In this document: piece by piece, positions 17,201 through 26,797 of the stretch | Layout: every line of letters starts with the position of its first letter | How positions within the stretch are numbered: the first letter of the stretch is position 1 | Assembly (NCBI RefSeq): GCF_053078305.1 | Contig: NZ_CP166879.1 | Strand: one strand, 5' to 3' | Length of the DNA stretch: 64,000 nucleotides | Notes under the pieces: model-generated | What the model was told of the DNA's origin: nothing | Seen by the model: only the letters and a program-made list of their open reading frames with translations | Databases searched by the model: none | Position numbers and translations under genes: made by a program

Positions 17201-18868
17201 GTGGCTCAATTCGTTTATACCATGCATCGTGTCGGCAAAGTTGTTCCGCCGAAACGTCATATTTTGAAAAACATCTCTCTGAGTTTCTTCCCTGGGGCAA
17301 AAATTGGTGTCCTGGGTCTGAATGGCGCGGGTAAGTCCACCCTGCTGCGCATTATGGCGGGCATTGATAAAGACATCGAAGGTGAAGCGCGTCCGCAGCC
17401 AGACATCAAGATTGGTTATCTGCCGCAGGAACCGCAGCTGAACCCGGAACACACCGTGCGTGAGTCCATTGAAGAAGCGGTTTCAGAAGTGGTTAACGCC
17501 CTGAAACGCCTGGATGAAGTGTATGCGCTGTACGCCGATCCGGATGCCGATTTTGACAAGCTGGCCGCTGAACAAGGCCGTCTGGAAGAGATCATTCAGG
17601 CTCACGACGGTCATAATCTGAACGTACAGCTGGAGCGTGCGGCGGATGCGCTACGTCTGCCGGACTGGGACGCGAAAATCGCTAACCTCTCCGGTGGTGA
17701 GCGTCGTCGCGTGGCGTTGTGCCGCCTGCTGCTGGAAAAACCAGACATGCTGCTGCTCGACGAACCGACCAACCACCTGGATGCCGAATCCGTGGCCTGG
17801 CTGGAACGCTTCCTGCACGACTTCGAAGGCACCGTGGTGGCGATTACCCACGACCGTTACTTCCTCGATAACGTTGCGGGCTGGATCCTCGAACTTGACC
17901 GCGGTGAAGGTATTCCGTGGGAAGGTAACTACTCCTCCTGGCTGGAGCAGAAAGATCAGCGTCTGGCGCAGGAAGCTTCACAAGAAGCGGCGCGTCGTAA
18001 GTCGATCGAGAAAGAGCTGGAGTGGGTACGTCAGGGAACTAAAGGCCGCCAGTCGAAAGGTAAAGCACGTCTGGCACGCTTTGAAGAGCTGAACAGCACC
18101 GAATACCAGAAACGTAACGAAACCAACGAACTGTTTATTCCACCTGGACCGCGTCTGGGCGATAAAGTGCTGGAAGTCAGCAACCTGCGTAAATCCTACG
18201 GCGATCGCCTGCTGATTGATGACCTGAGCTTCTCGATCCCGAAAGGGGCGATCGTCGGGATCATCGGTCCGAACGGCGCGGGTAAATCGACCCTGTTCCG
18301 TATGATCTCCGGTCAGGAACAGCCGGACAGCGGCACCATCACTTTGGGTGAAACGGTGAAACTGGCATCGGTTGATCAGTTCCGTGACTCAATGGATAAC
18401 AGCAAAACCGTTTGGGAAGAAGTTTCAGGCGGGCTGGATATTATGAAGATCGGCAACACCGAGATGCCAAGCCGCGCCTACGTTGGCCGCTTTAACTTTA
18501 AAGGGGTTGATCAGGGTAAACGCGTTGGTGAACTCTCCGGTGGTGAGCGCGGTCGTCTGCATCTGGCGAAGCTGCTGCAGGTTGGCGGCAACATGCTGCT
18601 GCTAGACGAACCAACCAACGACCTGGATATCGAAACCCTGCGCGCGCTGGAAAACGCCCTGCTGGAGTTCCCGGGCTGTGCGATGGTTATCTCGCACGAC
18701 CGTTGGTTCCTCGACCGTATCGCCACGCACATTCTGGATTACCAGGATGAAGGTAAAGTTGAGTTCTTCGAAGGTAACTTTACCGAGTACGAAGAGTACA
18801 AGAAACGCACGCTGGGCGCAGACGCGCTGGAGCCGAAGCGTATCAAGTACAAGCGTATTGCGAAGTAA
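17201..18868 (+). CDS. ettA: Energy-dependent translational throttle ABC-F ATPase EttA
   Basis: 555-aa ORF with two ABC cassettes (Walker A GLNGAGKST and GPNGAGKST; signature LSGGERRR and LSGGERGR). Confidence 0.97.
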   Translation: MAQFVYTMHRVGKVVPPKRHILKNISLSFFPGAKIGVLGLNGAGKSTLLRIMAGIDKDIEGEARPQPDIKIGYLPQEPQLNPEHTVRESIEEAVSEVVNALKRLDEVYALYADPDADFDKLAAEQGRLEEIIQAHDGHNLNVQLERAADALRLPDWDAKIANLSGGERRRVALCRLLLEKPDMLLLDEPTNHLDAESVAWLERFLHDFEGTVVAITHDRYFLDNVAGWILELDRGEGIPWEGNYSSWLEQKDQRLAQEASQEAARRKSIEKELEWVRQGTKGRQSKGKARLARFEELNSTEYQKRNETNELFIPPGPRLGDKVLEVSNLRKSYGDRLLIDDLSFSIPKGAIVGIIGPNGAGKSTLFRMISGQEQPDSGTITLGETVKLASVDQFRDSMDNSKTVWEEVSGGLDIMKIGNTEMPSRAYVGRFNFKGVDQGKRVGELSGGERGRLHLAKLLQVGGNMLLLDEPTNDLDIETLRALENALLEFPGCAMVISHDRWFLDRIATHILDYQDEGKVEFFEGNFTEYEEYKKRTLGADALEPKRIKYKRIAK

Positions 18869-18877
18869 TGCGTAAAA

Positions 18878-18915
18878 TGCCGGATGCGGCGCGCCAGCAC
18901 CGCATCCGGTATTAG
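18878..18915. repeat. REP-like palindrome, probable ettA terminator
   Basis: GCCGGATGCGGCG...CCGCATCCGGT hairpin 10 bp after the ettA stop. Confidence 0.7.
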
Positions 18916-19023
18916 TTAAATGATTAGTCCCCGGAAAAAGGCAGAATTTTCTTTTAGTGTATTAGCTCAGATGCGGACTGACATCTCAAATCAAGCGGGA
19001 ACTCATGATTCCCGCTTAACGTT

Positions 19024-19911
19024 CTATTCACCGCGCAGAATCTGGCGGAAATGGGAAACCAACGGACGTTGGTTGGCTTTATGCCAGGCTGCCCATAATT
19101 GCGTTGAATAATTCATCCACGGCAATTCACGTAATACCACCCCTTCCGGCGCATTATGACGCAGACTATGTTGAATTAAGGCCAGACCTAATCCCGCAGC
19201 GACCAGACCTAATGCCGTGAGGGGTTCACCCGCTTCCAGGCGAATATCAGGATTAAACCCGGCGTTAACACAGGCGGCGACAAAATGATCGCGAGAATGC
19301 GCATCGTCGTTATGAATCACCGCAATCCACTGCTCATCGCCAAGTTGTGACGCGACAAGGTTTTCCTCCTGCGCCAGAGGATGATTTTGCGGTAAGGCCA
19401 ACAACATTCGATCATCCAGAACCTGAATATATTCCAGATCCTGCTCGCTGTCGGTGGGCGGCGTATCGACCAGAGAAAAATCGAGACTGCGCTGGCGCAG
19501 GCCTTCAATCTGGGTAGCCGGTGGTTGGCTGTAAAGTGCGATATGCACATTCGGACGCGATACACGTAACGTACGTAGCGCCGTAGAAAGCACACCGGAA
19601 TGCATGGCGTTTTCGATATAGCCAATACACAAGCCACCATCTTCCCCCCGTCCCAGGCGTTTGCCTAACGACTCCAGGCGGTTGGCGTGTGTCAGCAACG
19701 AACGTGTTTCGGCAAGGAATGTCTGTCCATCAGCGGTCAGGCGAATGCGCTGCTGATTACGCTCAAACAGCGTCAGCCCCAGTCGTTCTTCCAGTTGTGC
19801 AATCTGGCGGCTCAGCGGCGATTGCGAGATATGTAATCGCTCGGCTGCGCGTCCCACGTGCTCTTCTTCTGCGACCACCACGAAGTACTTCAGTTGGCGT
19901 AAATCAATCAT
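19024..19911 (-). CDS. LysR-family transcriptional regulator (accessory island)
   Basis: ORF 19024..20004; start placed at the Met giving MIDLRQLKYFVVVAEEEHVGRAAERLHISQSPLSRQIAQLEE (LysR HTH); divergent from the AKR-SDR-SRPBCC operon. Confidence 0.85.
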   Translation of the reverse strand: MIDLRQLKYFVVVAEEEHVGRAAERLHISQSPLSRQIAQLEERLGLTLFERNQQRIRLTADGQTFLAETRSLLTHANRLESLGKRLGRGEDGGLCIGYIENAMHSGVLSTALRTLRVSRPNVHIALYSQPPATQIEGLRQRSLDFSLVDTPPTDSEQDLEYIQVLDDRMLLALPQNHPLAQEENLVASQLGDEQWIAVIHNDDAHSRDHFVAACVNAGFNPDIRLEAGEPLTALGLVAAGLGLALIQHSLRHNAPEGVVLRELPWMNYSTQLWAAWHKANQRPLVSHFRQILRGE

Positions 19912-19976
19912 GTTAGACCTCAAAGGACTTAAGTCAGACGAATTATGTCCTATCAAGTCACAACCTCGCAAGGTAT

Positions 19977-19992
19977 TGTGATCCACGTCACA
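19977..19992. promoter_or_regulatory. Perfect TGTGA-N6-TCACA palindrome (CRP-like core or regulator operator) in the divergent promoter region
   Basis: TGTGATCCACGTCACA read directly from the sequence between the LysR start (19911) and the AKR start (20045). Confidence 0.35.
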
Positions 19993-20044
19993 GGGCGATA
20001 GCAAAAAAACGCCCTAACCCAAACCGAATAATTGAGGACATCTT

Positions 20045-21055
20045 ATGAGCATTAAAAATTTACTCCCCGGCAAAATTGGCTTAGGCGGCGCACCACTTGG
20101 CAACATGTTCCGTGCCATTCCGGAAGAAGAGGCCCACGCCACCGTGAGCGAAGCCTGGAACCTGGGTGTGCGTTACTTTGATACCGCGCCGCTGTACGGC
20201 TCTGGCCTTTCTGAAATCCGCATGGGTGAAGCGCTGTCTCAGTATCCACGCGATGAATACGTTCTGAGTAGCAAAGTCGGTCGCATCATGCTGGACGAAA
20301 TGGAAGATCCGGCAAAACGGGATTTCGGTGAAAAAGGTGGCCTGTTCGAACACGGCCTGAAAAACAAAATTCTGAATGACTACTCTGCTGACGCCACTCT
20401 GCGCTCGATTGAAGACAGCCTGAAACGCCTGAAAACAGACCGTCTGGATATTGTCTGGATCCACGACCCGGCGCAGGACTTCTACGGTGACAGCTGGCTG
20501 GAGCAGTTCAACATTGCCCGTACCGGTGCATTTCGTGCGCTGACGCGTTTGCGTGACGAAGGTGTGATTAAAGCCTGGGGACTGGGTGTGAACCGCGTCG
20601 AACCTTGCGAACTGACGCTGGCGCTGGACGAACCGAAGCCGGATGCGTTCCTGCTGGCGGGGCGTTATTCCCTGCTGGATCACGAACGTGCGCTGCAACG
20701 CCTGATGCCAGAAGCACTGGAACAGAACGTGGATATCGTTGTGGGCGGTCCATACAGCTCTGGCGTACTGGCAGGCGGCGAGCACTTTGAATATCAGAAA
20801 GCCTCTGCGGCCATCCAGCAGAAAGTGGCGCAAATTAACGCCATTGCCACACGTTTCAATGTGAACGTTAAAGCGGCTGCGCTGCAGTTCGCGCTGGCAA
20901 ACCCGGCCGTTGCAGCGGTTATTCCTGGCTCCAGCCGTCCTGGTCGTATGGCAGAAGATCTGGCTGCACTGAATGCGCCTGTTCCGGCTGAATTCTGGGC
21001 AGAAATGCGCCGTCAAAATCTGGTTGCGGAAAACGCTCCGCTGCCGACCCGTTAA
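20045..21055 (+). CDS. Aldo-keto reductase family oxidoreductase (accessory island)
   Basis: 336-aa ORF with AKR-like N-terminus (GLGGAPLGNMF...YFDTAPLYGSG...); RBS GAGGA upstream. Confidence 0.85.
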   Translation: MSIKNLLPGKIGLGGAPLGNMFRAIPEEEAHATVSEAWNLGVRYFDTAPLYGSGLSEIRMGEALSQYPRDEYVLSSKVGRIMLDEMEDPAKRDFGEKGGLFEHGLKNKILNDYSADATLRSIEDSLKRLKTDRLDIVWIHDPAQDFYGDSWLEQFNIARTGAFRALTRLRDEGVIKAWGLGVNRVEPCELTLALDEPKPDAFLLAGRYSLLDHERALQRLMPEALEQNVDIVVGGPYSSGVLAGGEHFEYQKASAAIQQKVAQINAIATRFNVNVKAAALQFALANPAVAAVIPGSSRPGRMAEDLAALNAPVPAEFWAEMRRQNLVAENAPLPTR

Positions 21056-21074
21056 TCAACCAGGTGAGAAAACG

Positions 21075-21872
21075 ATGAAACTGGATCTGACAGGTAAAGT
21101 CGCGGTGGTCAGCGGCTCAACCTCCGGCATTGGGCAGGGTATCGCCGCCGGACTGGCAAAAGCAGGCGCAACGGTGGTTGTCGTCGGCCGTAAACAGAGC
21201 GGCGTTGATGACGCCATGGCTGCGATTGCGGCACAAACTCCCACAGCGTCACTGCGCGGCGTGGTGGCCGATCTCAGCACCGAAGACGGCGTGGCTGCGC
21301 TGATCGCTGCAGTCCCAACGGCTGATGTGCTGGTCAATAATCTGGGCATTTTTAACGATAAAGATTTCTTTAGCGTTCCGGATGATGAGTGGATGCACTT
21401 CTATAACGTCAACGTCCTCTCCGGCGTTCGTCTGGCGCGTCACTATGCGCCAGGCATGACGGAACAGGGCTGGGGGCGGATTATCTTTGTCTCGTCCGAA
21501 TCCGGCGTGGCAATCCCTGGCGACATGATCAACTACGGCGTCACCAAAGCCGCGAATCTGGCGGTTTCTCATGGTCTGGCGAAACGACTGGCGGGGACCG
21601 GTGTGACCGTCAACGCCATTCTGCCAGGGCCAACCTTTACCGATGGCCTGAAAGAGATGCTGGCGGATGCCGCTGCACAATCGGGACGCAGTGCGCGTGA
21701 ACAGGCCGATGAATTTGTTAAAACCTCGCGTCCGAGCTCCATCATCCAGCGTGCGGCAGATGTGGAAGAAGTGGCGAATCTGGCGGTTTATCTCGCGTCA
21801 CCGCTTTCCTCGGCAACCACAGGGGCAGCCCTGCGCGTCGATGGCGGCGTCGTCGACACCCTGACAATGTAA
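21075..21872 (+). CDS. Short-chain dehydrogenase/reductase (accessory island)
   Basis: ORF 20973..21872; start at MKLDLTGKVAVVSGSTSGIGQGIA (Rossmann TGxxxGIG) with a YxxxK catalytic motif (YGVTK); 19 bp after the AKR gene. Confidence 0.85.
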   Translation: MKLDLTGKVAVVSGSTSGIGQGIAAGLAKAGATVVVVGRKQSGVDDAMAAIAAQTPTASLRGVVADLSTEDGVAALIAAVPTADVLVNNLGIFNDKDFFSVPDDEWMHFYNVNVLSGVRLARHYAPGMTEQGWGRIIFVSSESGVAIPGDMINYGVTKAANLAVSHGLAKRLAGTGVTVNAILPGPTFTDGLKEMLADAAAQSGRSAREQADEFVKTSRPSSIIQRAADVEEVANLAVYLASPLSSATTGAALRVDGGVVDTLTM

Positions 21873-21897
21873 CCCTATAAATTAAGAGAAAATTATC

Positions 21898-22314
21898 ATG
21901 GCTAAAACAACTGTATCGATCGAAATTCCGGCTTCTGGCGACGCCGTATGGCAATTGATGGGCGGCTTTGATGCGCTGCCAGACTGGCTACCATTCATCC
22001 CGAAAAGCGTGGTGACAGAAGGCGGTCGCGTTCGTTCGCTGACAACCTCTGACGGCGGCACTGTGGTTGAACGTCTGGAAGCGTTTGATAACCGTCAACG
22101 CAGTTATACCTATTCCATTATTCAGGCACCGTTCCCGGTGGTGGATTACCTCTCCACCATTACCGTTCATGAAACCGCCGACAGCCAGGTTTCCCGTGTG
22201 GAATGGTTCGGTGAATTCACCCCGGTGAATGTGACGAACGAAGAGGCCGAGGCGCTGTTTACCGGCATCTATCGGGATGGACTCAAGGCGCTTAAGGACA
22301 ACTTTGTTGCCTGA
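21898..22314 (+). CDS. SRPBCC / Bet v1-like (polyketide cyclase-type) small protein
   Basis: 138-aa ORF 25 bp after the SDR gene; size and composition fit SRPBCC ligand-binding proteins; assignment is by resemblance only. Confidence 0.6.
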   Translation: MAKTTVSIEIPASGDAVWQLMGGFDALPDWLPFIPKSVVTEGGRVRSLTTSDGGTVVERLEAFDNRQRSYTYSIIQAPFPVVDYLSTITVHETADSQVSRVEWFGEFTPVNVTNEEAEALFTGIYRDGLKALKDNFVA

Positions 22315-22471
22315 TGCGATCGACAGGCGTCGGCACGTCCGGCGTCTGATTATTAACAAAAACAGAATAGTCTATTGTCATTTGTATCATTTATGTTATC
22401 AGACAGCAGGCGTATTCTCTCCCCATCGCGTTAATAAACGCCAAACAATTAAGACACTCTGGAATATAAAC

Positions 22472-22684
22472 ATGAAAACGATCATCGCAATTTTTACCGC
22501 TTCTCTTTTCTCTGTCGCGGCGTTTAACGCATCGGCGCAAAGCGTGACAGCAACCGGTACAACACTGGATTCCGCTGAAGCGGTTATTGCGCAGAAAGCG
22601 AAAGAGATGAACGCCTCTGAATACAAAATTACCAGCGCTCGCATGGGCAATACCGTCACCATGAGTGCCGAACTGTATAAATAA
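22472..22684 (+). CDS. DUF1471 (YhcN/YdgH-like) small periplasmic stress protein
   Basis: 70-aa ORF with signal peptide MKTIIAIFTASLFSVAAFNASA and the conserved C-terminal motif of the family (...KITSARMGNTVTMSAELYK). Confidence 0.75.
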   Translation: MKTIIAIFTASLFSVAAFNASAQSVTATGTTLDSAEAVIAQKAKEMNASEYKITSARMGNTVTMSAELYK

Positions 22685-22708
22685 TCGCGCGAGGAACCCA
22701 TTACGTAA

Positions 22709-23039
22709 TTTGCTAAATATGCGCTGAATGCGTTGCCATTAATAAACCGTATTGTACTGCCACCGATGACGCGTTCCCGCGCCGGTGCGGGTGACGTTGC
22801 GATTGGCATGATGGCGGAGTATTACGCGCAGCGCGCCAGTGCTGGACTTATCATCAGCGAAGGTACGCAAATCAGCAGAATCGCTGCGCATAATTTTCCA
22901 CGGCACGCTGATTTACTCCGGTAAATACACCAAAGCGCGCGCCGAACAGGCGCTGGCTAACGGCTGGTCGGATCTGATTGGTTTTGGTCGTCCGTATAGT
23001 GCCAGGAGCGGAAGTTGTCGAAGGGTCATAAAGAGCTAA
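22709..23039 (+). pseudogene. Decayed Old Yellow Enzyme (NemA-like) flavin oxidoreductase: N- and C-terminal fragments with an internal deletion and frameshift
   Basis: Frame A reads ...NRIVLPPMTRSRAGAGDVAIGMMAEYYAQRASAGLIISEGTQIS (like the NemA N-terminus); frame B reads ...HGTLIYSGKYTKARAEQALANGWSDLIGFGRPY (like the NemA C-terminal region); no ATG start; the middle two-thirds of the protein is missing. Confidence 0.7.
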
Positions 23040-23355
23040 ACCCCGGCATTGCTTCTCAGCTGTTTATAGCCGTTCCTGGGTACAAGTGAGCACTAAGGCG
23101 AGCATTGTTATAATCACCAACCAATCACTAGTTGTGTACAAATTCTGACCGCAAAGCGAACTCTCCGGCATGCAGGTTGGAGAAAGCACAGTTGACCTAA
23201 AATGCTCCTCCAGCCAGAAACAAAAGGTGGCCGATAATTCGAAAGCAAAAAAAGATAAAGCAGGGAATGTGCCCGCAAATTCTTAATCATATAGCCAAAC
23301 CGAGCAGCGTATGATATCCAGCCCTGATACGGGCTGGATATTAAATTTTCGCCGG

Positions 23356-23823
23356 TCAGTTATCGCAATGACCTGGCACTGCTAACTTAACTTCAGGTTT
23401 AGAAACGACGCGGATACCTTCGCTTTCGGATACCTGTTCAAGTCCAGCCCCACCAACAAAAACGCCCATTTTGATGTACTGGCGAACAAAGTAGTTTTTC
23501 CCGGACGTGACATTGAGTGTCAGATTATTAGGTGAAAACTCGGATTCAGTTCCCAGCGTATGTGGTTGGCTGGTCGATATTTGCTGATAGAAAAAGACTC
23601 TGTCAGCCGTTTCACCAAGACAACGGCCGTCAAGATAAACATCCTTTTTTAACGCTTTACCAACAAAGCTGTCTCTGTAAACGTATAGACCGGCTTTGCC
23701 ATTTTCCGGGACCGGGAAAGACTTAGCTGTCTCGTTTTCAGCATTACTGCCCAGAGGAACCGACGCACACCCCCCCAGAAGCACTGAGGAAATAATGACT
23801 GCGCCAAATAAAATTTTATTCAT
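23356..23823 (-). CDS. Lipoprotein (DUF2846-like)
   Basis: 155-aa ORF with lipobox (MNKILFGAVIISSVLLGGC-ASVP). Confidence 0.8.
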   Translation of the reverse strand: MNKILFGAVIISSVLLGGCASVPLGSNAENETAKSFPVPENGKAGLYVYRDSFVGKALKKDVYLDGRCLGETADRVFFYQQISTSQPHTLGTESEFSPNNLTLNVTSGKNYFVRQYIKMGVFVGGAGLEQVSESEGIRVVSKPEVKLAVPGHCDN

Positions 23824-23949
23824 TGAATTCTCATGGAGTTAAGAAAATCGCCAAATGAGAATAAACTTATTTTACACTTATGTCATTAAAGGAGGCATTG
23901 CTTCACAACAACATCAATGTTCATCCCGGAACCGTCCACTTCCGCTTCT

Positions 23950-24128
23950 CGCTCAAAACGGACTGTCATATTTGATTGCATTCTGGCTACGCAACCGGTC
24001 GGTTGGAGTATGAAGTTGCTCACGAATAGCCTTAGCATCCGCAATTTCGTAGCGGGTCACCCGTACAGGTTCTTTCTAATCTCGACAGCCTCTTCCAGAG
24101 AGGTTTTCAACTCATCAAAAAAACTCAT
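23950..24128 (-). pseudogene. Remnant of a small XRE-family antitoxin-like gene (N-terminal fragment, frameshifted)
   Basis: Minus-strand ATG at 24128 gives MSFFDELKTSLEEAVEIRKNLYG then a stop; a shifted frame continues RVTRYEIADAKAIREQL...; resembles the N-terminal region of COG2944-type HTH antitoxins; it sits 33 bp from the nadR stop. Confidence 0.4.
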
Positions 24129-24161
24129 TTTATACCTCGCCTTTGAGCAGTTTCATCACGG

Positions 24162-25394
24162 TTATCTCTGCTCCCCCATCATCTCCCGCACCAGCTCCAC
24201 GCAGCGCAGGAAACGGCTGTCGTAATCTTCCTCTTCAACCCGCACAAATTCGATATTGTTCTCTTCCAGCATCTCCACCAGCAGATTCTGGAACTCTTTA
24301 CGATCCACCGAACTGCCGAGGCTGCGTAAACCATCCGCCACCCACGGCGTGTTGTTCTCCAGCAGGATCACCAGATCGAAACGGTATTCATCAATCAGCG
24401 CCTGCACGAACGGATGTTCCCGCCCTTCGTACTTTTTGCAGAACGCCTGAGTGGTGACAAAATCGGTATCGATAAATGCCACTTTATTGGCATATTTCAC
24501 CGCAAAATCAATGTATTGAGCGTGGCCCAGCGCGATTTTATCGTAGTCAGAATACTGCAATGCGATCTCATCACCGCCGAGGTGTGAAAAGACATAATCG
24601 CGGCCATATTCCCACGCACTGGTGGTGTTGAAGATATTGGCAAGTTTGTTTACCAGGGTGGATTTACCGCTCGACTCGCCGCCAAGGATCGCCACGGTAC
24701 GCACAAAAAACGGCTTCACTTCGGTAGGAATATATTCCCAGTAGCGGAACGGGTTTTCGCGGATCTGCGCACCGCTGATACTCATAAAGGTACGTTTCGG
24801 ATCGACCAGCACCGTCTCGATCCCCAGATGTTCCATATACTGTGGCGCATCGGCTTCTTCCGAGGTGTAGATCAGATCCGGCTGGATCCCTTTTTCAGCC
24901 ATAAACTTTTTGATACCGTTGCTCCACACATCCCAGCCGTGCGGATACGGCTCCATGCCCTCTTCGTTGAAAGCATGAATGCGAATATTTTTCTGATATT
25001 TAAAAGTTTGCAATAACCAGCGCAGACGATCCGGCACGGTCGGCTGCTGCGACATGGCACTGTCTTCGAACAACGCGCGGTCACGGGTATCGTCAAAACC
25101 CATAATGATATGCAGCTCGTCAACCTGGCTACAGGCGCGCTGGATAAGGTAGATATGTCCGGTATGCAGTGGGTAGAACTTACCGAATACGACACCGATC
25201 GTTTTCTTCTGCCGGGGAAACTCAAGCCCCAAAAAACGGTGCAACGCCTCCAGCTTTTGCGCGCTGGGGCTTTTAATTTTGGCATTCAGTAACTGGCTTA
25301 AATACCCTTTGGTCATACCGCTGGCATCAGCTACCTGCTGTAGCGTGCAGCCCTGTTGCTTGATGGCAGTTTTCAGGTAATCAAATGACGACAT
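24162..25394 (-). CDS. nadR: Trifunctional NAD biosynthesis regulator NadR (NMN adenylyltransferase / ribosylnicotinamide kinase / repressor)
   Basis: ORF 24162..25415; start placed at MSSFDYLKTAIKQQGCTLQQVADASGMTKGYLSQLLN (410 aa). Confidence 0.96.
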   Translation of the reverse strand: MSSFDYLKTAIKQQGCTLQQVADASGMTKGYLSQLLNAKIKSPSAQKLEALHRFLGLEFPRQKKTIGVVFGKFYPLHTGHIYLIQRACSQVDELHIIMGFDDTRDRALFEDSAMSQQPTVPDRLRWLLQTFKYQKNIRIHAFNEEGMEPYPHGWDVWSNGIKKFMAEKGIQPDLIYTSEEADAPQYMEHLGIETVLVDPKRTFMSISGAQIRENPFRYWEYIPTEVKPFFVRTVAILGGESSGKSTLVNKLANIFNTTSAWEYGRDYVFSHLGGDEIALQYSDYDKIALGHAQYIDFAVKYANKVAFIDTDFVTTQAFCKKYEGREHPFVQALIDEYRFDLVILLENNTPWVADGLRSLGSSVDRKEFQNLLVEMLEENNIEFVRVEEEDYDSRFLRCVELVREMMGEQR

Positions 25395-25414
25395 ATCTCC
25401 CTCCGTATTTCTCA

Positions 25415-26797
25415 TTATAAGTCGTCGAACACGCTAAGCGCGTCGGAGAGTTTTTTAACGCCAAAAATCTGCATCCCTTCCGGCGCTTTTTTCGGTACGT
25501 TAGCCGCCGGAACAATCGCCCGACGAAAACCGTGTTTCGCCGCTTCAGAGATTCGTTCCTGACCGCTGGGCACCGGGCGGATCTCCCCTGCCAGCCCGAC
25601 TTCACCAAACACCACCAGATCCTGCGGTAGCGGTCTGTCACGCAGGCTGGAAACCATCGCCAGCAGTAACGCTAAGTCGGCGCTGGTTTCGGTTACCTTC
25701 ACGCCGCCGACCACGTTCACAAACACATCCTGATCGGCCATTTGCAGACCACCGTGACGGTGCAAGACAGCCAGCAGGATTGCCAGACGGTTTTGTTCCA
25801 GCCCCACTGCCACGCGGCGCGGATTCGCCATCATCGAGTGATCGACCAGCGCCTGGATCTCCACCAGCAGTGGACGCGTTCCTTCCCATACCACCATCAC
25901 TGAACTACCAGAGGTCACTTCATCGCCACGGCTTAAAAAGATTGCCGAAGGATTGCTGACTTCACGCAGCCCCTGTTCGGTCATCGCGAAGACGCCCAGC
26001 TCATTCACCGCGCCGAAGCGGTTTTTATGGCTGCGCAAGGTGCGAAAACGGGAGTCGGCATCGCCATCCAAAAGCACCGAACAGTCGATACAGTGTTCCA
26101 GCACTTTCGGGCCAGCCAGCGAACCATCTTTGGTTACGTGCCCCACCATGACAATCGCCACACCGCGCGTTTTGGCGAAGCGTGTCAAATAAGCCGCCGT
26201 TTCACGCACCTGCGCCACGCTACCAGGCGATGACTGTACATCCGCCATATGCATCACCTGGATCGAGTCAATTACCATCAGCTTCGGTTGCTCTTCTTCG
26301 GCAATCAGGCAGATCTGCTCGATGCTGGTTTCCGACAACATATTGAGATTGTCAGTCGGCAGGCCAAGGCGATGAGCGCGCATTGCCACCTGTTGCAGCG
26401 ACTCTTCGCCGGTGACATACAGCGTTTTCATCTGCTGCGCCAGTTTGCACAGCGTTTGCAGCAACAGCGTGGATTTCCCCGCACCAGGGTTACCGCCAAT
26501 CAGAATGGCACTTCCTGGCACCACGCCGCCGCCTAGTACGCGGTCGAACTCTTTAAATCCGGTGGAAAAACGCGGCAGCTCTTCAAGGCTGATATCGGAG
26601 AGTTTCTGGACTTTTGCCACCCCGGCGCTACCGGCATAGCCGCTGAGACGCTCGTTACGCGCCACCGTTGGCGACGCAGCAAGACGCACCTCGGTGATGG
26701 TGTTCCAGGCATGACAGGCACTGCACTGCCCCTGCCAGCGCGGATAATCGGCCCCGCATTCATTACAAACAAAGGCGCGTTTTGGAGCTTTTGCCAC
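25415..26797 (-). CDS. radA: DNA repair protein RadA/Sms
   Basis: ORF 25415..26845; start placed at the in-frame GTG giving (M)AKAPKRAFVCNECGADYPRWQGQC (zinc finger), with Walker A GNPGAGKST. Confidence 0.95.
   Translation of the reverse strand: MAKAPKRAFVCNECGADYPRWQGQCSACHAWNTITEVRLAASPTVARNERLSGYAGSAGVAKVQKLSDISLEELPRFSTGFKEFDRVLGGGVVPGSAILIGGNPGAGKSTLLLQTLCKLAQQMKTLYVTGEESLQQVAMRAHRLGLPTDNLNMLSETSIEQICLIAEEEQPKLMVIDSIQVMHMADVQSSPGSVAQVRETAAYLTRFAKTRGVAIVMVGHVTKDGSLAGPKVLEHCIDCSVLLDGDADSRFRTLRSHKNRFGAVNELGVFAMTEQGLREVSNPSAIFLSRGDEVTSGSSVMVVWEGTRPLLVEIQALVDHSMMANPRRVAVGLEQNRLAILLAVLHRHGGLQMADQDVFVNVVGGVKVTETSADLALLLAMVSSLRDRPLPQDLVVFGEVGLAGEIRPVPSGQERISEAAKHGFRRAIVPAANVPKKAPEGMQIFGVKKLSDALSVFDDL

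What the first reader, a model, noticed from the sequence alone, without database searches (positions are those of the whole stretch)
23950..24128. Antitoxin-like HTH gene fragment abutting the nadR stop
A minus-strand ATG 33 bp from the nadR stop opens a 23-codon ORF (MSFFDELKTSLEEAVEIRKNLYG) that continues in a shifted frame as RVTRYEIADAKAIREQL.... This resembles the conserved N-terminal region of small COG2944-type XRE antitoxins. No toxin partner is present. It is probably a relic of a toxin-antitoxin module at the island edge and may mark the original insertion junction.
Basis: inference. Interest (0 to 1): 0.35.

Follow-up and report, generated by a model that had tools for sequence, protein, structure and literature searches.

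The report
Dead nadS antitoxin gene relic
The short reading frame next to nadR is the broken front end of nadS, the antitoxin gene of a HigB2/HigA2-type toxin-antitoxin pair that some E. coli strains still carry intact at this spot. It is an ordinary decayed gene that public annotation already recognises.

Summary
A 23-codon minus-strand ORF (24057-24128) starts 33 bp after the nadR stop and continues in another frame as RVTRYEIADAKAIREQL.

It is the 5' part (codons 1-42) of nadS, the 'NadS family protein' (NCBIfam NF041265). The repaired fragment matches that model at E 7e-16. NadS is the antitoxin of a toxin-first RelE/ParE module related to Vibrio cholerae HigB2/HigA2.

Of 5426 complete E. 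coli genomes:
- 673 keep the toxin gene; the examined examples lie in nadR-toxin-nadS-ettA
- about 58 keep a full-length orphan nadS
- K-12-type strains keep a 55-aa stump
- 480 carry the window's junction

In the window:
- the toxin gene is deleted except for a 29-nt 3' stub inside the 33-bp spacer
- a 10-bp deletion shifts the nadS frame at codon 18
- nadS nt 126-237, which hold most of the helix-turn-helix (HTH), are replaced by a 5,053-bp metabolic islet (18961-24013)
- the nadS 3' end survives on the far side of the islet, next to ettA (18927-18960)

Two corrections apply: 23950-24013 is islet DNA, not nadS, and the fragment holds almost none of the HTH. RefSeq already annotates the equivalent pseudogene. 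Interest is low.

The parts
24162..25415 (-). nadR (context). Its stop codon is at 24162-24164.
   Evidence: ORF list. RefSeq annotation of orthologous loci.
24130..24158 (-). 3' stub of the deleted HigB2-like RelE/ParE toxin gene (toxin nt 305-333; reads ..KLLKGEV* against intact ..KLLKGEI*).
   Evidence: Alignments A1 and A3 and the pairwise alignment.
24057..24128 (-). The present 23-codon ORF: NadS residues 1-17, then 6 out-of-frame codons and a stop. A GAGG Shine-Dalgarno-like motif lies upstream.
24077..24128 (-). nadS nt 1-52 (codons 1-17), identical in protein to intact NadS.
24076..24077 (.). Site of the 10-bp deletion (AACAAGGTTT relative to other alleles) that shifts the frame.
   Evidence: Alignment A1. 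The deletion is absent in strain 1190.
24014..24076 (-). nadS nt ~63-125 (codons ~22-42, RVTRYEIADAKAIREQL), now out of frame with the ATG.
23938..24013 (.). Right end of the islet. It is shared by all islet-bearing strains examined. It is not nadS-derived and no coding assignment was found for it.
   Evidence: No Pfam hit.
18961..24013 (.). 5,053-bp islet that replaces nadS nt 126-237. Contents: LysR regulator, aldo/keto reductase, SDR, SRPBCC, DUF1471, Oxidored_FMN pseudogene fragments and a DUF2846 lipoprotein gene.
18927..18960 (-). nadS 3' fragment (nt 238-271, codons 80-90, ..KENPAFFRE; 30/34 nt identical). An 11-bp deletion follows, then the nadS stop (18924-18926) and its native downstream flank towards ettA.
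17201..18868 (+). ettA (context): the other flank of the original nadR-toxin-nadS-ettA arrangement.

Best explanation
The feature is a non-functional relic of nadS. NadS is the 94-aa antitoxin of a toxin-first type II toxin-antitoxin cassette. The toxin is a RelE/ParE-superfamily protein related to V. cholerae HigB2. The antitoxin is HigA2-like.

The cassette once sat between nadR and ettA. The inferred history is:
1. The cassette was present as nadR-toxin-nadS-ettA, as it still is in about 12% of E. coli.
2. A deletion of about 0.39 kb removed the cassette's own upstream region and toxin nt 1-304. It left a 29-nt toxin stub and an orphan nadS 33 bp after nadR.
3. A 5-kb metabolic islet replaced nadS nt 126-237. 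This split the gene into a 5' piece beside nadR and a 3' piece beside ettA.
4. A 10-bp deletion then shifted the frame of the 5' piece at codon 18, and an 11-bp deletion hit the 3' piece.

Shown: the homologies, the breakpoints, and the order of steps 3 and 4. Step 2 before step 3 is inferred from the toxin-deletion junction that islet-bearing, K-12-type and orphan-nadS strains all share.

Inferred: the relic has no antitoxin or repressor activity. It lacks the DNA-binding and dimerisation domain and all but 17 residues of the N-terminal segment. In HigA2 that segment neutralises the toxin. There is also no toxin left to neutralise.

Inferred: the 23-codon ORF may still be transcribed by read-through from nadR and translated, without consequence.
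For: Family assignment
- Intact E. coli NadS scores 182.6 bits on NF041265. The repaired window fragment scores E 7.4e-16 over profile positions 1-44 of 94.
- HTH_3 maps to residues 35-79 of intact NadS. The toxin matches PF06296 RelE.
- The toxin matches HigB-2 structures at E 1.4e-15, and NadS matches HigA-2 at E 2.2e-6.
- The HigA2 architecture is taken from PMC5416850.

State of the locus in other strains
- An intact nadR-toxin-nadS-ettA locus exists in strain Z0117EC0036.
- The toxin gene is present in 673 of 5426 genomes.
- An orphan full-length nadS exists in SWHEFF_68, with the same toxin-deletion junction as the window.
- Full-length nadS is present in 731 genomes.
- RefSeq annotates the 95.6%-identical locus of strain ST2747 as 'NadS family protein; frameshifted; incomplete; missing C-terminus'.

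Breakpoints and order of events
- The toxin stub, the 10-bp deletion and the truncation point are seen in alignment A1 and the pairwise alignment.
- The nadS 3' end lies beside ettA.
- Strain 1190 has the islet and the codon-42 truncation but not the 10-bp deletion.

The cassette as a unit
- In 69 of 80 other species, a NadS relative sits directly downstream of a HigB2-like toxin gene. Only one of the 80 is next to nadR.

Not an assembly error
- The same relic is found in independent assemblies L088-L091, with 0-2 mismatches.
Against: Nothing contradicts the pseudogene reading.

Three caveats remain. The repaired fragment scores 58.2 bits, just under the NadS cut-off of 60, which is expected for 44 of 94 positions. 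Expression was not measured. The truncated 55-aa nadS of K-12 is reported as translated (PMC12350097), so a residual role for N-terminal NadS peptides is not formally excluded.
Confidence: 0.93

Rival explanations
1. The 23-codon ORF, or N-terminal NadS peptides in general, is a retained functional mini-antitoxin or small protein. It might, for example, neutralise incoming HigB2-family toxins as an anti-addiction device.
For: In V. cholerae HigA2 the N-terminal disordered segment alone carries the toxin-neutralising function (PMC5416850). The N-terminal motif is highly conserved across 80 species. Three different truncated states (K-12 type, strain 1190 type, window type) all keep the 5' end. 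K-12 nadS is reported as translated. The ORF keeps its GAGG ribosome-binding motif.
Against: The frameshift leaves only 17 native residues, which is less than the helix-plus-strand segment that binds the toxin in HigA2. No toxin homologue is present in the window. The 5' end could be retained simply because it lies next to nadR. The relic's divergence from intact alleles is similar to that of the adjacent nadR DNA.
Confidence: 0.04
2. The sequence is kept as a functional non-coding part of the nadR transcript, such as a 3' UTR or terminator, or as a promoter for the downstream DUF2846 gene.
For: It lies directly 3' of nadR in 92% of E. coli genomes. Promoter-like hexamers occur on the minus strand at 24156-24127, 23886-23858 and 23842-23813.
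Against: No terminator-like site was found in 23300-24400. The RNA fold is no better than shuffled sequence, z -0.6. The promoter-like matches are weak (9 of 12; 3 found against 1.3 expected). The conservation is fully explained by descent from nadS.
Confidence: 0.03
3. It is a chance ORF, or the frameshift is a sequencing or assembly error in an otherwise intact gene.
For: None beyond the ORF being short.
Against: Protein and DNA homology are highly significant. The 10-bp deletion and the truncation recur in independent assemblies. The C-terminal half of the gene is physically absent.
Confidence: 0

Closest known systems
nadS / 'NadS family protein' (NCBIfam NF041265), as annotated by PGAP downstream of nadR in E. 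coli. This includes the pseudogene CF60_RS29110 of strain ST2747 and the 55-aa nadS of K-12 derivatives.
   Same: Same locus, 33 bp after nadR. The first 17 residues are identical. It shares the 10-bp deletion and the codon-42 truncation with ST2747, which is 95.6% identical at DNA level.
   Different: In the window the neighbouring cassette is a DUF2846 lipoprotein gene, not wHTH+TauE/SafE, GNAT or nothing. The K-12 stump is truncated at a different point (about codon 37) by REP-like sequence and is in frame.
TA30 'parE-3/yiaG-2' of AIEC NRG857c/LF82 and UPEC CFT073, described in the nadR-ettA intergenic region (PMC7232551).
   Same: This is the intact form of the same cassette at the same chromosomal site. 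LF82 is among the 673 genomes that carry the toxin gene.
   Different: The window has lost the toxin apart from 29 nt, and has lost the antitoxin's HTH. That paper states K-12 and HS lack these genes. In fact the K-12 type retains a nadS stump and the toxin stub.
Vibrio cholerae HigB2/HigA2 (PDB 5JAA, 5J9I, 8A0X).
   Same: The closest solved homologues of the intact E. coli pair: toxin E 1.4e-15, antitoxin E 2.2e-6. Both have toxin-first gene order and an antitoxin with an N-terminal segment followed by an HTH.
   Different: The relationship is distant. Only the HTH part of NadS aligns significantly. The N-terminal neutralising role of NadS is inferred, not shown. The window holds only a relic.
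   Same: Small XRE-HTH protein of about 96 aa. Intact NadS aligns over residues 6-91 at E 1.6e-12.
   Different: The score of 47.7 bits is far below the YiaG cut-off of 110. NadS is a separate family.

Membership tests
NadS (NCBIfam NF041265) | Whole-protein HMM score at or above the curated cut-off (60 bits) | tested here: not met
   The repaired window fragment scores 58.2 bits, E 7.4e-16, covering profile positions 1-44 of 94. Intact E. coli NadS scores 182.6 bits. The fragment derives from the family but is not a complete member.
NadS (NCBIfam NF041265) | Conserved N-terminal motif MSFFDELK.SLEEAVEIK | tested here: met
   Residues 1-17 are identical to intact NadS. The motif is conserved across 80 species, with a mean top-residue fraction of 0.85.
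NadS (NCBIfam NF041265) | About 94 aa with a C-terminal XRE-type HTH (Pfam HTH_3, residues 35-79) | tested here: not met
   Homology ends at codon 42 and nt 126-237 are absent. 78 of 80 relatives are exactly 94 aa.
HigB2/HigA2-type type II toxin-antitoxin module | RelE/ParE-fold toxin gene immediately upstream of the antitoxin gene | tested here: not met
   Only a 29-nt 3' stub remains at 24130-24158, and no toxin homologue exists elsewhere in the window. The feature is met in intact E. coli loci (673 genomes) and in 69 of 80 other species.
HigB2/HigA2-type type II toxin-antitoxin module | Sequence homology of both partners to the solved V. cholerae pair | tested here: met
   Tested on the intact E. 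coli orthologues, not on the relic. Toxin against HigB-2, E 1.4e-15. NadS against HigA-2, E 2.2e-6.
HigB2/HigA2-type type II toxin-antitoxin module | Toxin inhibits growth or translation and the antitoxin neutralises it | not testable with these tools
YiaG (NF007481, COG2944-type) | HMM score at or above the cut-off (110 bits) | tested here: not met
   Intact NadS scores 47.7 bits. The window fragment gives no hit.

The most novel reading that the evidence does not exclude
N-terminal NadS stumps may be kept next to nadR across E. coli because the peptide still works as a free-standing neutraliser of incoming HigB2-family toxins, or as a small modulator linked to nadR. On this reading the window's 23-aa version would be a minimal or recently inactivated form. 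The stumps are the 55-aa form in the K-12 type, the 42 native codons in the strain 1190 type, and the 17 native codons here.
Probability: 0.04. Interest if true: 0.45.

Novelty: already known. Interest (0 to 1): 0.1.

Why it matters
It matters little in itself. It is a textbook case of toxin-antitoxin decay: the toxin goes first, the orphan antitoxin is then truncated, and a frameshift follows. Public annotation already labels the equivalent locus as a NadS pseudogene.

Its practical uses are these:
- It fixes the exact boundaries of the 5-kb nadR-ettA islet, because both halves of the split gene flank it.
- It gives an ordered series of states that could serve as a lineage marker in E. coli.
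- It corrects the published impression that K-12-type strains simply lack this toxin-antitoxin system. They carry its remains.

Tried and rejected
- Structured RNA or terminator in the nadR 3' region. The fold z-score is -0.6 and no terminator-like site was found. Rejected.
- Toxin gene elsewhere in the window. The best tblastn E-value is 1.5. Rejected.
- Target-site duplication or terminal inverted repeats at the islet ends 18961 and 24013. None was found. The only notable inverted repeat flanks the inner variable cassette, not the islet.
- The idea that the islet's right-end 76 bp is an inverted Oxidored_FMN gene fragment. The right arm has no Pfam hit. The left arm has only a weak hit, E 0.061. 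Unresolved and not used.
- The idea that nadR linkage is a family trait of NadS. Only 1 of 80 species loci is next to nadR. The name reflects the Escherichia context only.
- Programmed frameshifting. Rejected because the downstream domain is physically missing.

Full report
**Observation**

The minus strand carries an ATG at 24128, 33 bases after the nadR stop (24162-24164). It opens a 23-codon ORF, MSFFDELKTSLEEAVEIRKNLYG* (24057-24128). In another frame the same strand reads KEPVRVTRYEIADAKAIREQLHTPTDRLRSQNAIKYDSPF*. The description is accurate.

**Identity**

A megablast of 23850-24165 against 5426 complete E. coli genomes found homologous DNA downstream of nadR in 4978 of them. It is annotated as 'nadS: NadS family protein'.

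Four reference loci show the range of states:
- Strain Z0117EC0036 has nadR, a 110-aa 'type II toxin-antitoxin system RelE/ParE family toxin', a 94-aa nadS, then ettA.
- Strain SWHEFF_68 has no toxin gene but a full-length 94-aa nadS 33 bp after nadR.
- K-12-type strains have a 55-aa nadS. The K-12 derivative J53 appears.
- Strain ST2747 is the closest match over this stretch (95.6%). It carries a feature annotated 'NadS family protein; frameshifted; incomplete; missing C-terminus'.

The HMM results agree:
- Intact NadS scores 182.6 bits on NCBIfam NF041265.
- The window's repaired translation scores 58.2 bits, E 7.4e-16, over profile positions 1-44 of 94.
- Intact NadS also hits the YiaG model (E 1.6e-12, below its cut-off) and MqsA/XRE models.
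- Pfam places HTH_3 at residues 35-79 of NadS and assigns the toxin to PF06296 RelE.

Against solved structures, the toxin matches V. cholerae HigB-2 (E 1.4e-15) and NadS matches HigA-2 (E 2.2e-6). HigA2 has an N-terminal disordered segment that neutralises the toxin, followed by an HTH domain for dimerisation and DNA binding. The higBA operon has inverted, toxin-first gene order (PMC5416850).

**Anatomy in the window**

- The 33-bp nadR-nadS spacer is CCG plus the last 29 nt of the toxin gene (24130-24158; KLLKGEV* against KLLKGEI*), followed by one further base before the nadS ATG. The window has 33 nt between the nadR stop and the nadS ATG, against 425 nt in the intact locus. So about 0.39 kb was deleted, covering the cassette's upstream region and toxin nt 1-304.
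- The window, ST2747, SWHEFF_68 and the K-12 type all share this same deletion junction.
- nadS nt 1-52 lie at 24128-24077. A 10-bp deletion follows. nadS nt ~63-125 lie at 24076-24014.
- Homology to nadS stops after codon 42 (…REQL).
- At the far end of the inserted DNA, next to ettA, window 18960-18927 matches nadS nt 238-271 (codons 80-90, 30/34 nt). An 11-bp deletion follows, then the nadS stop and its native downstream flank (56/58 nt).

So a once-contiguous nadS was split. Its nt 126-237, which encode most of the HTH, were replaced by 5,053 bp (18961-24013). This islet encodes a LysR regulator, an aldo/keto reductase, an SDR, an SRPBCC protein, a DUF1471 protein, Oxidored_FMN gene fragments and a DUF2846 lipoprotein.

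The whole 64-kb window contains no toxin homologue.

**Order of events**

Strain 1190 has the islet and the same codon-42 junction, but its nadS 5' piece lacks the 10-bp deletion and is in frame. The islet therefore came first and the frameshift later. The toxin deletion is placed before both because its junction is shared by orphan-nadS, K-12-type and islet-bearing strains.

Escherichia sp. MOD1-EC7003 has nadR-nadS-ettA with a different toxin deletion that leaves about 95 nt of the toxin's 3' end. The toxin was therefore lost at least twice at this site.

**Population counts in 5426 complete genomes**

| State | Genomes |
|---|---|
| nadS 5' sequence present | 4978 |
| Toxin gene present | 673 |
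| Full-length nadS | 731 (so about 58 orphans) |
| Window-type junction | 480 |

**The cassette is mobile**

NadS relatives of 69-98% identity occur in 80 species of Enterobacterales and other Gammaproteobacteria. In 78 of the 80 they are exactly 94 aa, and the N-terminus is conserved. In 69 of the 80 loci a HigB2-like toxin gene lies directly upstream. Only the Escherichia locus is next to nadR. The name NadS reflects the E. coli context only.

**Literature**

The intact pair was described as TA30 'parE-3/yiaG-2' in the nadR-ettA intergenic region of AIEC and CFT073, and was said to be absent from K-12 and HS (PMC7232551). The 55-aa nadS of K-12 was reported as translated in a transposon-reporter screen (PMC12350097).

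**Function**

The relic lacks the HTH and all but 17 residues of the N-terminal segment, and its toxin is gone. The best reading is a dead gene, possibly still transcribed by read-through from nadR. No terminator-like site was found and the RNA structure is unremarkable. The same relic occurs, with 0-2 mismatches, in independent assemblies, so it is not an assembly error. The window is E. coli: its core genes are 99.4% identical to RefSeq strains.

**Verdict**

The feature is already recognised by public annotation. Interest is low.

Noticed in passing
window 23018-23937 (DUF2846 gene 23356-23823, minus strand); compare L001, L004, L007, L092: The segment directly abutting the nadS relic is a hypervariable cassette. 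It holds a DUF2846 lipoprotein gene here, wHTH+TauE/SafE in ST2747, GNAT in strain 1190, and nothing in ETEC6335 or MSB1_3B. The breakpoints are 23017|23938, 23004|23938, 22946|23956 and 22949|23961. The 1009-bp stretch 22947-23955 that holds this cassette is absent from all 5426 complete RefSeq E. coli genomes except for its first ~71 bases. It is present in other public assemblies: the index lists the protein in 44 blocks of the collection.
   Followed up: partly
window 22990-23020 and 23933-23963: A 31-nt imperfect inverted repeat (24/31) sits at the two breakpoints of the variable cassette. The left arm lies inside an Oxidored_FMN pseudogene. The right arm has no family hit. It could be chance, a trace of an inversion, or a recombination site.
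   Followed up: partly
window 22733-23039: Fragments of an OYE-type NADH:flavin oxidoreductase gene. The N-terminal piece hits PF00724 at E 1.2e-7. The C-terminal piece lies in other frames. This is a second pseudogene inside the islet.
   Followed up: partly
L008 2896-3000 (Escherichia sp. MOD1-EC7003): An independent deletion of the toxin gene at the same nadR-nadS site. It keeps about 95 nt of the toxin's 3' end and a full-length nadS. Toxin loss has recurred at this locus.
   Followed up: yes
L003 2944-3111 (K-12-type strain CAR): The 55-aa 'nadS' of K-12-type strains is itself a relic. It has NadS codons 1 to about 37, then codons read from REP-like sequence (GCCGCATCCGGC), and the same toxin stub lies upstream. 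A published survey states that K-12 lacks this toxin-antitoxin system.
   Followed up: partly
L005 1-1277 (strain SWHEFF_68): An IS1397 (IS3-family) element is inserted just beyond the full-length orphan nadS, in place of the usual ettA flank. This is further evidence that the nadS-ettA interval is a rearrangement hot spot.
   Followed up: no
window 18876-18913: A REP-like palindrome (17-nt arms, 88% complementary, 4-nt loop) lies between ettA and the nadS 3' fragment. It is also present in strains with the intact toxin-antitoxin pair.
   Followed up: no
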